64,000 nucleotides of DNA from the human T2T-CHM13v2.0 reference genome, Homo sapiens, in assembly GCF_009914755.1 (NCBI RefSeq), contig NC_060926.1, one strand, 5' to 3'. The translations under genes and the position numbers were made by a program. The notes beneath the pieces are model-generated. The model worked only from the letters and a program-made list of their open reading frames with translations, ran no database searches and was not told where the DNA came from. Positions 11,181 to 14,630 of this stretch are shown one piece after another. Numbering within the stretch: position 1 is the first letter of the stretch; the number at the start of each line of letters is the position of its first letter.

Positions 11181-12345
11181 TTGCCTTAGCAATGCATGTC
11201 CCAAGACCTCTTTTTTATTTCAGAGCCTCAAAAACTACTAAATACCTATCTTCAGCTCGGATTTCTATCCCATCAACTAAATAGCTTAGGTGCCTGTAGG
11301 CCCCTCCAGTTCAGTAAGCCAGAAATGGCTTTGTTATCTGCTTTCTTCTTCCTGCTCCTTTCCAACCCCTCTTCATGCTATTATTCTCTATTTCAGTGAA
11401 TGACACCTAATTTCTTGGGAGTCTTCCTTTTCTTTTACATTCTATATGTAATTGGTTTACCAAGTTGTATTATATTTACCTCAAATCTAACGCTTTCACT
11501 TAAGGTTAGTCTGGTGGCTAATGGCATTGATTTTGGGGTCGAATTTGGAGCTAAACTCAAGCATTTCCCCTTAAAAGCAGTTGAAATTGGCAAGTTGCTC
11601 AGTGTCAAGTGGCAATAACAAATGCCTGCCTTCCAGGAGGTTGGTTAGGAGAATGGGTGAGTACAGGATTAGTTCTTTCCCTTTACTGTGTGCTTTAAAC
11701 AAGGGATCAAACTTTCTTCAGGCTTAGTTTGCTCATCTGTAAAAGGATGCTGATAATAGCTAACTCATAGGGTTGTTGCAAAATTTAACTGAGATAATTT
11801 AAATGTGTGTAACATAGTGACTAGCACATGGTAAGCATTAAAAAGAAACGTAAGCTCTTAATAGCATCGCCCACTGCCACTGCTTTTATGTAGGCCTTCT
11901 CATTTTAGCCTGCCTCACTGACATAAGCTCTTCACTAATTTCCCTAATTTGTCTTACCCCTTTCCAATTCATGCTGCTACCTGAGTGAGTTTAAAAAACA
12001 AACCTGATCCCATCACTGTCTTGCTTAAAATTCTTAAAAGTAGTGATTCTTAATCATGTGTGAAAGACAGAGAGTGCAGTGAACTCACTTGATACAAAAT
12101 CTATGAACTGTCTTCCCAGAAAAATGCTTTAACATACTAAGTTTTGAAGTTTGGATATAATTTCTGGTAGTTCACAGATTCCTTGATGTCATCTTTGGAC
12201 CCCCAATTAAAAAACGCTTGCTCTAATGGCCTCCCATTATCCCCAGCATAAGGTCAAACTCTTTTACACAGATAAGAGAATCCAGATAAGCAGAAAGAAA
12301 AGAGGCATCTATTCATAATCCAACTATCTAGAGAAAACCATTTTC

Positions 12346-14506
12346 TTTTTTTAAAGTAAATAAAAATGAACTTATTAAAAAAAACCATTTATCATTTCAC
12401 AACACATCAATAACCAAGTAGAAAATAAAAAAATATATAAAAGCCTGGGCAACATAGTGAGACCTCATCTCTACAAAAAATATAAAAATTAGCTAGGCAT
12501 GATGGCACACACCTGTAGTCCCAGCTACTCTGGAGGCTGAGGCAGGAGGATCATTTGAGCCCAGGGTTCAAGGTGGCAGTGAGCCATTATTACACCTGTG
12601 AATAGCCACTGCACTCCAGCTTGGGCAACATAGTGAGACTCCCATCTCAAAAAAAAAAAAAAAAAAAGACAAGGAACTAATAATTAGGATATACAAGGAC
12701 CTCTTGGCAAATCAAAAAATAATTTTTCAATTTTTCCATGGAAAAATGGTCAAAGATTATAAAAAAGCAAATCACAGGAGCAGAAACTCAGCTGGCTTAC
12801 AAGTGTATGAAGAGATCTTCAATCTCAATTAGTAATCAGAAATGTAAATCAAAGCAAAAAAAAACATTGGCAAATATTTTTAAACATTAGATGATACCAG
12901 TTGTTGGTGAGAATATGGGAGAAACAGGAACTTCTGTGTACTGCTAAGGGGGAATGTAAACTGTTACAGTAGGACATTAGAAGCAACCAGTGTACTCGTC
13001 ACTAGGGGAAAATGGTCTGTAAACATGGTAGATCCATATCATGGATTATGCTGCAAGTAACAGCCACATGGACAGATCTCTAAGGTCACCACTGAAGGAA
13101 AATTAAGAAAAAGAATAAGATCTATAATAGCCTATATCATCTTGTACTTAAAAAGCACATACATAAAGCAGTACTGTGTAACTTAATAAAAATATATACA
13201 CATCTAAGATGTATCTGATATATCGGTGGGTACAAGAGGGTAAGTGGGGTGCAGAGGGAGTGGGAAAATAACTATGAAGGGGAAAGGTACTAAAATACAA
13301 CGAGAAGGGCCTGGCACAGCCCATATTTGATAATGTGCTAAGAAGTCATTAGAAATTTTGAATGACTGAATTCCCTATACCTGAGGTCCCCCTTTAAAAA
13401 GCTCACCCTTCTTATAGACGAAGAAGCGAAGACACTAAGTTACAATGATATAAATTAAGCTACCAATGACAAAGTGCTCAGTCAACCTTCTGCCTTGTGT
13501 TGATAACACTAATCTGCCCTAGTTATATCTAAAGAAAAATATACTTTCATACAGATTTCACAGCTTTTCAACATCCATATATCTGGAAAGATAAGAACAT
13601 TTGTATATCCTTCCATATGAGTCCTTGTGATTCGTTGAGGCCATAGGTTAAGTTTCCTTTCAGTCATTCCAAGGAGAATCAGCATGACCAAGCAAAGCAG
13701 GTTCCAAAGGCAGGAAGCAGAAGCAATATGATGCTGTGGAGGTACCTTTCTGAAACAGTCTCTTCTGCTGTTGTGGGGTCTTTGGGCAACCCTTCAATTT
13801 AAGTGCTTGGCAACAAGTCTGCTGAGATAGGCTGACCTTGTAGCTTTTGTAGTCTCTATCGTACAGCACTGGTCAGATCTACATAAGCCTCATCGATGCT
13901 GACGCATTCAATCACAGCAAAACAAGACTTCCTCCATCACTTCAACACTGGCTTCCCGGTACTTGGTGAGGTTAGCTTTCCCATGGTACTCACGAACTTG
14001 TGCCAGTAGAAGACCTGGACTTAACTTCTTTGCATCATCTGCCTACATATAGTGACCCCAAATGCAAGAGCTTCATAACTCACTGCAATTATTCTACCAC
14101 CTTCCATGATTTGTACTACACAGCTGCACAAGATTTATTCCTCAAATGAGGATTTTGCCGCTGCTCCATTGGAACAAAGTCTATGTCCATGAGAGTAACC
14201 ACACAATCCTGTCCAGTAGCCATTTTTCAAGGTAACAGACACCTGGCCAGACTGCCAGCAGTGGGTGCCGCAAATGCTGGGCTCGGTGCCCACTGGAAGG
14301 AAAATGGAAGAAGGGCTTTTGAATATCTTTTCGCCTTTCTGGGGAGAGTTTCGAGAGATTTATTCCCCGTGATGACAGAGGAACAGAGAAGGGGTCGTGA
14401 AGGATCCTGCCCAGGCGACCGTCCCCACAGTTCAGCAGGGATCAGCCGAGAGCAGTGTGCCCAGCAACAAAGCCACCAGACTGAGGACAGACAGCACGCA
14501 CGCTGC
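12346..14506 (-). pseudogene. POLHP1: POLH (DNA polymerase eta) processed pseudogene: 5' UTR plus spliced exons to ...ETVQK, then intron-like read-through. Probably the locus named POLHP1.
   Basis: Minus strand ATG at 14223 gives MATGQD..EQRQNPHLRNK..GKANLTKYREASVEVME..SIDEAYVDLTSAV, with frameshifts and stops and no introns. Flanked by the identical 21-nt repeat CTAGAGAAAACCATTTTCTTT at 12328-12348 and 14507-14527. The symbol is from memory. Confidence 0.92.
12443..12667 (+). mobile_element. Old Alu (5'-truncated, FAM/7SL-like right arm) inside the POLH retrocopy
   Basis: Contains CCTGTGAATAGCCACTGCACTCCAGC. A-tail at 12649-12667. Confidence 0.85.
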
Positions 14507-14630
14507 CTAGAGAAAACCATTTTCTTTCCTCACGTTTTTTAATGCTCCTAATTAATGTGTTTTCTAGCTCCTTCTCTCACTACGTCCCAGCTTTTGCACC
14601 TTATGCTTTAACCCAATACAACTATTTTCT

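What the first reader, a model, noticed from the sequence alone, without database searches (positions are those of the whole stretch)
12328..14527. POLH retrocopy preserves a truncated, intron-4-terminated polymerase eta mRNA
Seen: on the minus strand the 5' UTR and coding sequence are intronless from the ATG (14223) to ...GAGACTGTTTCAGAAAG (13746). Homology to the POLH protein stops exactly at a GTACC donor-like site. The matching 21-nt TSD lies ~1.4 kb further on (12328-12348), after a short A-run that has AATAAG 18 nt upstream (12371-12376). The extra 1.4 kb is intron-like, with an Alu and L1-like AT-rich DNA. Known, from memory: POLH exon 4 ends at c.490 (E164). Inference: the RNA that L1 copied was spliced across exons 1-4 and then polyadenylated inside intron 4. 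That would be a germline-expressed short isoform of ~164 aa plus an intron-encoded tail (here QKGTSTASYCFCFLPLEPALLGHADSPWND*). It would keep the catalytic D13 and SIDE residues but lack the thumb, little finger, UBZ, PIP and NLS. This is fossil evidence for intronic polyadenylation as a control on Pol eta.
Basis: partly seen in the sequence, partly recalled or inferred. Interest (0 to 1): 0.8.

Follow-up and report, generated by a model that had tools for sequence, protein, structure and literature searches.

The report
Half-spliced POLH retrocopy ending in intron 4
An old, dead copy of the DNA polymerase eta gene inside an XRCC5 intron was made from an RNA that had lost introns 1-3 but still ran 1.4 kb into intron 4; it is a neat but ordinary kind of genomic fossil, and it cannot by itself show that the RNA was polyadenylated there.

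Summary
Window 12349-14506 (minus strand) is one L1-type insertion, bounded by an exact 21-nt target-site duplication. It matches POLH on chromosome 6 in order. Exons 1-4 are joined precisely. The match then crosses the exon 4 donor (c.490) without a break and follows intron 4 to a point 2,473 nt into today's ~10.2-kb intron. That stretch is 1.4 kb in the copy, because three Alus entered the parent later. The curated POLHP1 annotation (13746-14423) therefore misses 83 nt at the 5' end and about 1.4 kb at the 3' end.

The parent carries a genomic A8 tract 3 nt beyond the end of homology, and the copy has only 4 untemplated A's. L1 priming on an unspliced RNA therefore competes with true intronic polyadenylation: I put these at about 0.42 and 0.50. 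A polyadenylation-signal-like hexamer lies upstream (AATAAG in the copy, AATGAA in the parent), but such hexamers precede 31% of A8 runs by chance.

Spliced models that read from exon 4 into intron 4 exist in other mammals. POLH is already listed as a premature-polyadenylation gene under CDK12 or U1 inhibition.

The copy is about 30-50 Myr old and probably has a Cebus orthologue. It is a new member of a known kind, of modest interest.

The parts
14507..14527 (-). 5' target-site duplication (minus-strand reading AAAGAAAATGGTTTTCTCTAG)
   Evidence: Exact 21/21 repeat of 12328-12348 (D5)
14228..14506 (-). POLH exon 1-derived 5' UTR. The first 83 nt (14424-14506) lie outside the curated POLHP1 span
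   Evidence: Aligns to C6:43404894-43405173, 81% by blastn; K2P 0.136
14097..14227 (-). POLH exon 2-derived segment with the ATG at 14223-14221
   Evidence: Aligns to C6:43411048-43411189; the parent has GG|GTATGT after it; translation starts MATGQD
13963..14096 (-). POLH exon 3-derived segment
   Evidence: Aligns to C6:43411740-43411874, 91%
13746..13962 (-). POLH exon 4-derived segment, ending at the equivalent of c.490
   Evidence: Aligns to C6:43416005-43416222; coding length 490 nt. Across exons 2-4 the copy carries in-frame stops and frameshifts
12353..13745 (-). Unspliced POLH intron 4-derived sequence. It starts at the first intron base (GTACC...) and is collinear with C6:43416223-43418695
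   Evidence: The alignment crosses the donor without a break. Four collinear blocks are interrupted only by three parent-only Alu insertions. 121 mismatches in 1381 aligned nt
12442..12678 (-). Alu, antisense to POLH, that was already in intron 4 when the RNA was copied
   Evidence: Present at the same place with the same flanks in the parent (C6:43418355-43418604). It is the only part with genome-wide matches
12371..12376 (-). Polyadenylation-signal-like hexamer AATAAG (parent: AATGAA at C6:43418671-43418676)
   Evidence: It ends 18 nt before the A-run. That both hexamers appear in published PAS variant lists is my recollection
12349..12352 (-). A-run that is not part of the TSD (4 A's; the first may be templated, since the parent reads ACTTTA)
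12328..12348 (-). 3' target-site duplication
   Evidence: Exact repeat of 14507-14527

Best explanation
POLHP1 is an L1-made, partially processed retrocopy, roughly 30-50 Myr old. It inserted antisense into an XRCC5 intron.

Its template was a POLH RNA that began in exon 1, had introns 1-3 removed, had not used the exon 4 donor (AAG|GTACTT), and ended 1.4 kb into intron 4. That point is 2,473 nt into the intron in today's gene. This structural part is shown, and I hold it at >=0.95.

For the 3' end I narrowly favour cleavage and polyadenylation at a cryptic intronic site. The elements are an AAT(A/G)A(G/A) hexamer, 19 nt to a UA cleavage point, and a GU-rich stretch downstream in the parent. 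L1 reverse transcription would then have started at the very beginning of the poly(A) tail. This step is inferred, not shown, and the confidence of 0.5 refers to it.

The copy is dead: it carries stops and frameshifts. It says nothing about function. At most it is a single fossil of a 2.2-kb short POLH transcript whose ORF in the parent would be 163 Pol eta residues plus a 28-aa intronic tail.
For: Structure:
- The TSD is an exact 21 nt.
- The chain to chromosome 6 is collinear: exon 1, exon 2, exon 3, then exon 4 running straight into intron 4.
- POLH exon 5 lies at C6:43426425-43426610, 7.7 kb beyond the end point, so the end is inside intron 4.
- Three gaps in the alignment are Alu insertions in the parent. 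Two have clear TSDs, and the copy keeps the empty sites.

For polyadenylation:
- The copy goes straight from ...ACTTTA into A's, whereas the parent reads ...ACTTTA-TCT-AAAAAAAA. The TCT that an A8-primed cDNA should contain is absent.
- A PAS-like hexamer sits 19 nt upstream of the end in both copy and parent, with GATAAA further upstream. The parent's next 40 nt contain TGTG, TGTATG and GTGTTTT.
- Indels are rare enough that a 3-nt loss exactly at the junction is improbable. There are 16 gap events in 1381 aligned intronic nt, which I estimate gives well under 1%.
- From general knowledge, a short polyadenylated RNA that can be exported is a far likelier L1 template than nuclear pre-mRNA.

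That such RNAs exist:
- Spliced exon 1-4 plus intron 4 read-through models occur in whale, bear, squirrel and bat, and in two clusters of short assembled contigs (7 and 13 contigs).
- POLH is listed as a PCPA gene under THZ531 and in the cross-referenced U1-inhibition lists.
Against: - The parent has a genomic A8 tract only 3 nt past the last shared base. It is the first A>=8 run in the intron.
- In 163 kb of local background, only 30 of 1836 PAS-like hexamers (1.6%) are followed by such a run. By contrast, 21 of 67 A>=8 runs (31%) have a PAS-like hexamer upstream. Taken alone, this pair of coincidences favours internal priming about 20-fold.
- The copy's tail is only 4 A's and abuts the TSD directly, so it was probably short from the start. 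The older Alu inside the same element still keeps 19 T's in the copy and 14 in the parent.
- Neither present-day hexamer is canonical, and the ancestral state cannot be inferred from two sequences.
- Aligned without a gap, the TSD start (AAAGAAAATGGT) matches the parent's A8+TTGT at 10 of 12 positions. That is what annealing of the nicked target to an internal site would look like.
- No human 3'-end data were available.
- Read-through models also exist for a later intron (P0105), so assembled exon-into-intron contigs are not special to intron 4.
Confidence: 0.5

Rival explanations
1. Internal priming. The template was a POLH RNA with introns 1-3 spliced and intron 4 still present. It could have been pre-mRNA, a retained-intron transcript, or a transcript ending further downstream. 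The T-rich 3' end of the L1-nicked target annealed to the genomic A8 tract inside intron 4, and reverse transcription started there. No poly(A) site was involved. The 3 nt (TCT) between ACTTTA and the A-tract were later lost from the copy or gained by the parent.
For: - The A8 tract lies at C6:43418699-43418706, 3 nt after the last shared base. It is the first A>=8 run in the intron.
- The A-run in the copy (4 A's, or 7 with the TSD) is no longer than that tract.
- Only 1.6% of PAS-like hexamers are followed by an A>=8 run by chance, while 31% of such runs have a PAS-like hexamer upstream.
- In the ungapped register, the TSD start and the parent's A8+TTGT match at 10 of 12 positions.
- Old A-tails persist in this same DNA (14-19 nt in the shared Alu), so a long poly(A) tail shrinking to 4 A's is unlikely.
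Against: - TCT is missing exactly at the junction. This needs a 3-nt indel at one particular spot, against 16 gap events per 1381 nt, or three adjacent substitutions.
- From general knowledge, L1 trans-mobilisation prefers long 3' poly(A) on exported RNA, and an A8 tract on a nuclear intron-bearing RNA is a poor substrate.
- The hexamer spacing and the GU-rich downstream sequence fit a real site.
Confidence: 0.42
2. Something other than one-step retroposition of an intron 4-ending RNA. Candidates are a DNA-level duplication, a longer retrocopy later cut back by deletion, a template switch, or an RNA end made by decay and short oligoadenylation.
For: The very short A-run (4 nt) would fit a short oligo(A) tail on a decay intermediate. 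Nothing else points this way.
Against: - Introns 1-3 are removed at the exact exon junctions, so the intermediate was RNA.
- The 3' TSD abuts the A-run, so nothing downstream was deleted after insertion.
- The exon 4-to-intron 4 join is the genomic one, so no switch is needed.
Confidence: 0.05

Closest known systems
Classical L1-mediated processed pseudogene (retrocopy)
   Same: Exact intron removal at three junctions, 21-nt TSD, A-rich start of the target site, a single parental gene elsewhere in the genome, and a decayed ORF.
   Different: It does not end at the gene's normal 3' UTR. 64% of its length is unspliced intron, and its A-tail is only 4 nt.
Partially processed retrocopies that keep intron sequence
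   Same: Some introns are removed and one is not. Baertsch et al. [quoted passage not shown] The rodent preproinsulin I retrogene is the textbook case (recalled; seen only as a reference).
   Different: Here the intron is not flanked by the next exon. The copy stops inside it, so this is intron termination rather than intron retention.
Retrocopies used as fossils of past transcript isoforms (Shemesh et al. 2006, PNAS)
   Same: The idea that a retrocopy records an isoform expressed in the germline.
   Different: That paper is not held. I saw only its citation and recall its content as dealing with splice variants. A full-text search for 'retrocop' together with 'intronic polyadenylation' found 0 papers.
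Premature cleavage and polyadenylation (PCPA/IPA) of DNA-repair genes under CDK12/13 or U1 inhibition
   Same: POLH is listed as a PCPA gene, class DDR, with 'yes' in both Oh_et_al columns, in Supplementary Data 4 of Krajewska et al. 2019 (PMC6465371). The exon 4 donor GTACTT departs from consensus at +4 and +5, whereas the exon 1-3 donors are GTAAGA, GTATGT and GTAAGA.
   Different: The list names no intron or site. A search of that paper's supplements for coordinates near the expected hg38 position found none. Other work on POLH concerns intron 1 retention (PMC10287901, passages read) and 3' UTR length (Zhang 2019, seen only as a citation).
3'-truncated retrocopies primed on internal A-rich tracts
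   Same: The parent has a genomic A8 at the end point, and the A-run in the copy is short.
   Different: The copy is not contiguous up to the tract: 3 nt are missing.

Membership tests
L1-mediated processed pseudogene / retrocopy | Introns removed precisely at parental exon junctions | tested here: met
   Exon 1/2, 2/3 and 3/4 junctions are exact against chromosome 6. Intron 4 is not removed.
L1-mediated processed pseudogene / retrocopy | Target-site duplication flanking the whole insert | tested here: met
   21/21 nt, 12328-12348 = 14507-14527.
L1-mediated processed pseudogene / retrocopy | 3' poly(A) tail next to the 3' TSD | tested here: inconclusive
   Only 4 A's lie outside the TSD (7 if the TSD's first 3 are counted).
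L1-mediated processed pseudogene / retrocopy | L1 endonuclease-type target (T-rich bottom strand at the nick; consensus TTTT/AA recalled) | tested here: inconclusive
   The bottom strand reads ...TTTTCTTT/CC. It is T-rich before the nick, but CC rather than AA follows.
L1-mediated processed pseudogene / retrocopy | Single multi-exon parental gene elsewhere; the copy is disabled | tested here: met
   Only chromosome 6 POLH matches outside the Alu. The copy has 4 in-frame stops and several frameshifts before codon 164.
Copy of an intronically polyadenylated (IPA) transcript | Poly(A)-signal hexamer 10-30 nt upstream of the end | tested here: met
   AATAAG in the copy and AATGAA in the parent, 19 nt before the end. 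These are variants, not AATAAA. The chance rate upstream of A>=8 runs is 31%.
Copy of an intronically polyadenylated (IPA) transcript | U/GU-rich element downstream of the cleavage point in the parent | tested here: inconclusive
   TGTG, TGTATG and GTGTTTT lie within about 45 nt. This was judged by eye, without a scoring model.
Copy of an intronically polyadenylated (IPA) transcript | The terminal A's are not encoded in the parental genome | tested here: inconclusive
   The parent reads ACTTTA-TCT-A8. The A's are not contiguous with the end, but they are only 3 nt away.
Copy of an intronically polyadenylated (IPA) transcript | Independent 3'-end evidence for the site in the parental gene | not testable with these tools
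   There is no access to PolyASite, PolyA_DB, ESTs or long reads. Only a gene-level PCPA listing for POLH was found.
Internally primed, 3'-truncated retrocopy | Genomic A-rich tract in the parent at the truncation point | tested here: met
   A8 at C6:43418699-43418706, the first A>=8 run in intron 4.
Internally primed, 3'-truncated retrocopy | The copy is contiguous with the parent right up to the tract | tested here: not met
   TCT (C6:43418696-43418698) is absent from the copy.

The most novel reading that the evidence does not exclude
POLH has an old, conserved short transcript class: exons 1-4 followed by read-through of a conserved weak exon 4 donor, ending within intron 4. This class would divert transcription away from full-length Pol eta.

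Four observations would then be views of the same switch:
- the ~30-50-Myr retrocopy;
- the spliced read-through models in at least five other mammals;
- the ~196 nt of intron start conserved at nucleotide level without a conserved frame, including a CAG|GTATAT site about 163 nt in;
- the PCPA listing under U1 or CDK12 inhibition.

The 191-aa product would lack half the palm and all of the thumb and little finger, so it is probably inert. The effect would be on dosage.
Probability: 0.2. Interest if true: 0.55.

Novelty: new member of a known kind. Interest (0 to 1): 0.3.

Why it matters
There are three modest gains.

1. The annotation of POLHP1 should be extended from 13746-14423 to 12349-14506. 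The extra 1.4 kb should be labelled as POLH intron 4, not XRCC5 intron.

2. The copy preserves the state of POLH intron 4 before three Alu insertions. This is a small, datable snapshot of an intron.

3. It points to a specific place in POLH (C6:~43418695 in this assembly, 2.47 kb into intron 4) where 3'-end data can be checked. POLH is a gene already reported to suffer premature termination when U1 or CDK12 is inhibited.

If a real site is there and is conserved, Pol eta dosage control by intronic termination becomes testable at a defined sequence. If not, this is one more partially processed pseudogene.

Tried and rejected
- A Pfam IMS (PF00817) scan of the genome found POLH exons 2 and 3 but not exon 5. 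Exon 5 was then located with a macaque Pol eta protein.
- An exact search for the copy's 10-mer at the exon 4 end found nothing in the parent, because the copy has a 1-nt insertion there.
- A search of the protein database for a human or ape short isoform with the intronic tail returned 3 proteins from 5 candidates, none of them human. Clustering at 90% and the length window may hide one, so this is weak evidence of absence.
- 'POLHP1' occurs in 0 papers.
- 'retrocop' together with 'intronic polyadenylation' occurs in 0 papers.
- Shemesh et al. 2006 is not held.
- Two searches failed on term format and were re-sent in valid form.
- A search of the Krajewska supplements for coordinates near the expected hg38 position gave only a chance numeric match.
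- I looked at the annotated 3' edge of the HNRNPA1 pseudogene (32460) to calibrate A-tail survival. Coding-like sequence continues there, so it was no use.
- I considered using the last protein search on the 99-aa stop-to-stop ORF that spans the parental end point, hoping to recover outgroup sequence indirectly. I did not run it: the chance of success was low, and a result showing TCT as ancestral would not separate the two main readings.
- DNA-level duplication and later truncation of a longer copy were considered and rejected. The reasons are given under the rival explanations.
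Full report
**What is in the window.**
- Read on the minus strand, 14527-12328 begins and ends with the same 21 nt (AAAGAAAATGGTTTTCTCTAG): 14527-14507 and 12348-12328. 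The two copies are exact.
- Between them lie 2,158 nt. Only 4 A's (12352-12349) separate the insert from the 3' repeat.
- The element sits in the XRCC5 intron between the exons at 5495-5688 and 17480-17573, antisense to XRCC5 (hub annotation).

**Source of the insert.**

A search of the window's own assembly, followed by a local blastn, gives one collinear chain to chromosome 6:

| Window | Chromosome 6 | Part |
|---|---|---|
| 14506-14228 | C6:43404894-43405173 | exon 1 |
| 14228-14096 | C6:43411048-43411187 | exon 2, ATG at C6:43411053 |
| 14096-13960 | C6:43411737-43411877 | exon 3 |
| 13962-13489 | C6:43416005-43416479 | exon 4 running into intron 4 |
| 13491-13200 | C6:43416785-43417076 | intron 4 |
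| 13196-13099 | C6:43417486-43417583 | intron 4 |
| 13116-12337 | C6:43417874-43418710 | intron 4 |

- The parental flanks show the expected splice sites: donors GTAAGA, GTATGT and GTAAGA after exons 1-3, and AG before exons 2-4.
- The alignment crosses the exon 4 donor without a break. The parent reads ...CAGAAAG|GTACTTCC and the copy ...CAGAAAG|GTACCTCC.
- A macaque Pol eta protein (P0008) places exon 5 at C6:43426425-43426610. Intron 4 is therefore about 10.2 kb.
- The last base shared by copy and parent is C6:43418695, 2,473 nt into the intron.
- Outside chromosome 6, every genomic match falls in query 1839-2098, which is the Alu. The rest of the 1.4 kb is unique to POLH intron 4. It is not L1-like repeat, and it is not XRCC5 DNA.

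**Why 1.4 kb in the copy equals 2.5 kb in the parent.**
- The three interruptions of the chain are Alu-bearing insertions in the parent: C6:43416480-43416784, 43417077-43417485 and 43417584-43417873.
- Two of them show clear target duplications (TCAATAGAAGGC and CATTCTTTTTCTT). The copy has the single, empty site at each.
- The antisense Alu at 12442-12678 is the opposite case. It is present in both sequences with the same flanks, so it was already in the intron when the RNA was copied.

**Age.**
- Over the intronic blocks there are 121 mismatches in 1381 aligned nt. K2P per block is 0.06-0.13, and I compute about 0.094 overall from those counts.
- Split over two neutral lineages, and using recalled primate rates of about 1-1.5e-9 per site per year, this gives roughly 30-50 Myr.
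- A 176-aa Ensembl-type model from Cebus imitator (P0121) is a degenerate Pol eta N-terminus that also reads into the intron 4 tail.
- It shares 3 derived residues with the human copy: V12M, D74G and R105C. Two of these are at CpG-type codons. It also has a lesion overlapping the human copy's frameshift at codons 61-62.
- I take it as a probable orthologue (about 0.65). That would place the insertion before the platyrrhine-catarrhine split. Without its DNA, an independent copy cannot be excluded.

**The copy is dead.**
- Translation from the ATG meets stops at codons 38, 127 and 146, among others.
- Frameshifts occur at codons 16-17, 43, 61-62, 102 and 160.

**The 3' end: the point on which the interpretation turns.**

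The copy reads ...AATAAG-TTCATTTTTATTTACTTT-AAAA-[TSD]. The parent reads ...AATGAA-TTCATTTTTATTTACTTT-A-TCT-AAAAAAAA-TTGTGATATAATCTGTATGAAGTGTTTT....

Two readings compete.

(a) The RNA was cleaved after ...ACUUUA and polyadenylated.
- The hexamer is at the right distance, and GATAAA lies further upstream.
- A GU-rich stretch follows in the parent.
- The TCT is absent from the copy, as expected.

(b) The nicked target annealed to the genomic A8 tract of an intron-bearing RNA.
- The tract is 3 nt away and is the first A>=8 run in the intron.
- The copy's A-run is very short.
- In the ungapped register, the start of the TSD matches A8+TTGT at 10 of 12 positions.

I measured the two coincidences on 163 kb of local sequence, both strands of the window and of the 17.5-kb POLH stretch:
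- 21 of 67 A>=8 runs have one of 18 PAS-like hexamers in the 32 nt upstream (31%).
- 30 of 1836 such hexamers are followed by an A>=8 run 16-38 nt downstream (1.6%).

These two numbers favour (b) about 20-fold. Other factors pull in both directions:
- (b) needs a 3-nt indel exactly at the junction. With 16 gap events per 1381 nt, I estimate this at about 0.5%.
- (a) needs reverse transcription to have begun within the first few A's of the tail. I estimate this at about 5%. Shrinkage is unlikely, because the older Alu tail in the same DNA still has 14-19 residues.
- The prior favours a polyadenylated RNA that can be exported as an L1 template. This is general knowledge, and I put it at about 3-5 to 1.

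The product is close to even. I put (a) at 0.50, (b) at 0.42 and everything else at 0.05-0.08. These factors are my own estimates, not tool outputs.

**Do such RNAs exist today?**

The protein database holds several models that join exons 1-4 and then read into intron 4:
- P0057, 191 aa, the same length as the human parental read-through ORF;
- P0110, bear, 188 aa;
- P0059, ground squirrel, 209 aa;
- P0058, bat, 166 aa;
- P0039, from assembled contigs (7 contigs);
- P0122, from assembled contigs (13 contigs, 228 aa).

Three points limit what these show:
- Because exons are joined in them, they must derive from RNA or from RNA-guided models. I cannot see the contigs or name the species of P0039 and P0122.
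- Aligned back to the human gene, they follow intron 4 for up to 196 nt but in three different frames. The start of the intron is conserved as nucleotides, not as a coding tail.
- P0044, P0086 and P0117 begin inside intron 3, so they are merely ORFs over unspliced sequence. P0105 reads into a later intron, so read-through contigs are not peculiar to intron 4.

**Literature.**

| Source | What it says | What I saw |
|---|---|---|
| Krajewska et al. 2019 (PMC6465371), Supplementary Data 4 | POLH is listed as 'PCPA', 'DDR', Oh_et_al_4h 'yes', 8h 'yes' | Supplement rows and header read; no intron or site is given |
| PMC10287901 | Retention of POLH intron 1 under CDK12/13 inhibition | Passages read |
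| Zhang et al. 2019 | A short-3'UTR POLH transcript | Citation only |
| Baertsch et al. 2008 (PMC2584115) | Retrocopies occasionally retain an intron through incomplete processing | Passages read |

- 'POLHP1' occurs in no held paper.
- No held paper combines 'retrocop' with 'intronic polyadenylation'.
- Supplements of bioRxiv preprints, PDF supplements and subscription papers were not searchable. They may hold site-level data.

**Verdict.**
- The structural inference is correct. The claim of intronic polyadenylation is about even odds. The regulatory reading goes beyond what one fossil can show.
- In kind, this is a partially processed, intron-terminated retrocopy: a new member of a known class.
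- Its practical value is twofold. It corrects the bounds of POLHP1, and it names a precise spot in POLH intron 4 to examine in 3'-end data.

Noticed in passing
window 12349-14506 versus the annotated POLHP1 span 13746-14423: The curated pseudogene span covers only part of the TSD-bounded insert. It omits 83 nt of exon 1-derived sequence at the 5' end and the whole 1.4-kb intron 4-derived part at the 3' end.
   Followed up: yes
L010:3723-3918 (C6:43416223-43416418): The first ~196 nt of POLH intron 4 are conserved at nucleotide level across several mammalian orders. Protein models from other species align to them in three different frames, so the conservation is not coding. The exon 4 donor GTACT(T) also appears in those species as the residues G-T-S.
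   Followed up: partly
L010:3864-3893 (about C6:43416364-43416393): About 163 nt into intron 4 the parent reads TTTTCTTATCTTTCCAG|GTATATGG: a pyrimidine tract and AG followed at once by GT. This could be an alternative downstream donor that would extend exon 4 past an in-frame stop, or a recursive-splice-like site. The copy has AT instead of GT there. The squirrel model keeps CAG-GTA, and another model has CAG-GCA.
   Followed up: no
L010 (C6:43416480-43416784, 43417077-43417485, 43417584-43417873): Three Alu-bearing insertions entered POLH intron 4 after the retrocopy was made. Two have clear TSDs, and one is followed by a TTCC-type microsatellite. The copy preserves the empty sites.
   Followed up: yes
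P0121 (Cebus imitator, 176 aa): This database 'UmuC domain-containing protein' looks like a translated POLH retrocopy with the intron 4 tail. It is probably the New World monkey orthologue of POLHP1, annotated as protein-coding.
   Followed up: partly
Listing (P0028, P0030, P0038, P0096, P0102; 414-433 aa): Several mammals have Pol eta isoform models of about 414-433 aa that lack the UBZ domain. This suggests a second, later alternative 3' end of the gene. I saw them only in the listing.
   Followed up: no
window 13649-14848: The RefSeq 'enhancer' feature overlaps the exon-derived part of the retrocopy, which carries former POLH 5' UTR/CpG-island sequence, and the neighbouring Alu. Whether the signal is real or comes from cross-mapping with the POLH promoter region was not examined.
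   Followed up: no
window 32330-32520: At the annotated low edge (32460) of the HNRNPA1 pseudogene, glycine-rich coding-like sequence continues further. That annotation may also be shorter than the element.
   Followed up: no
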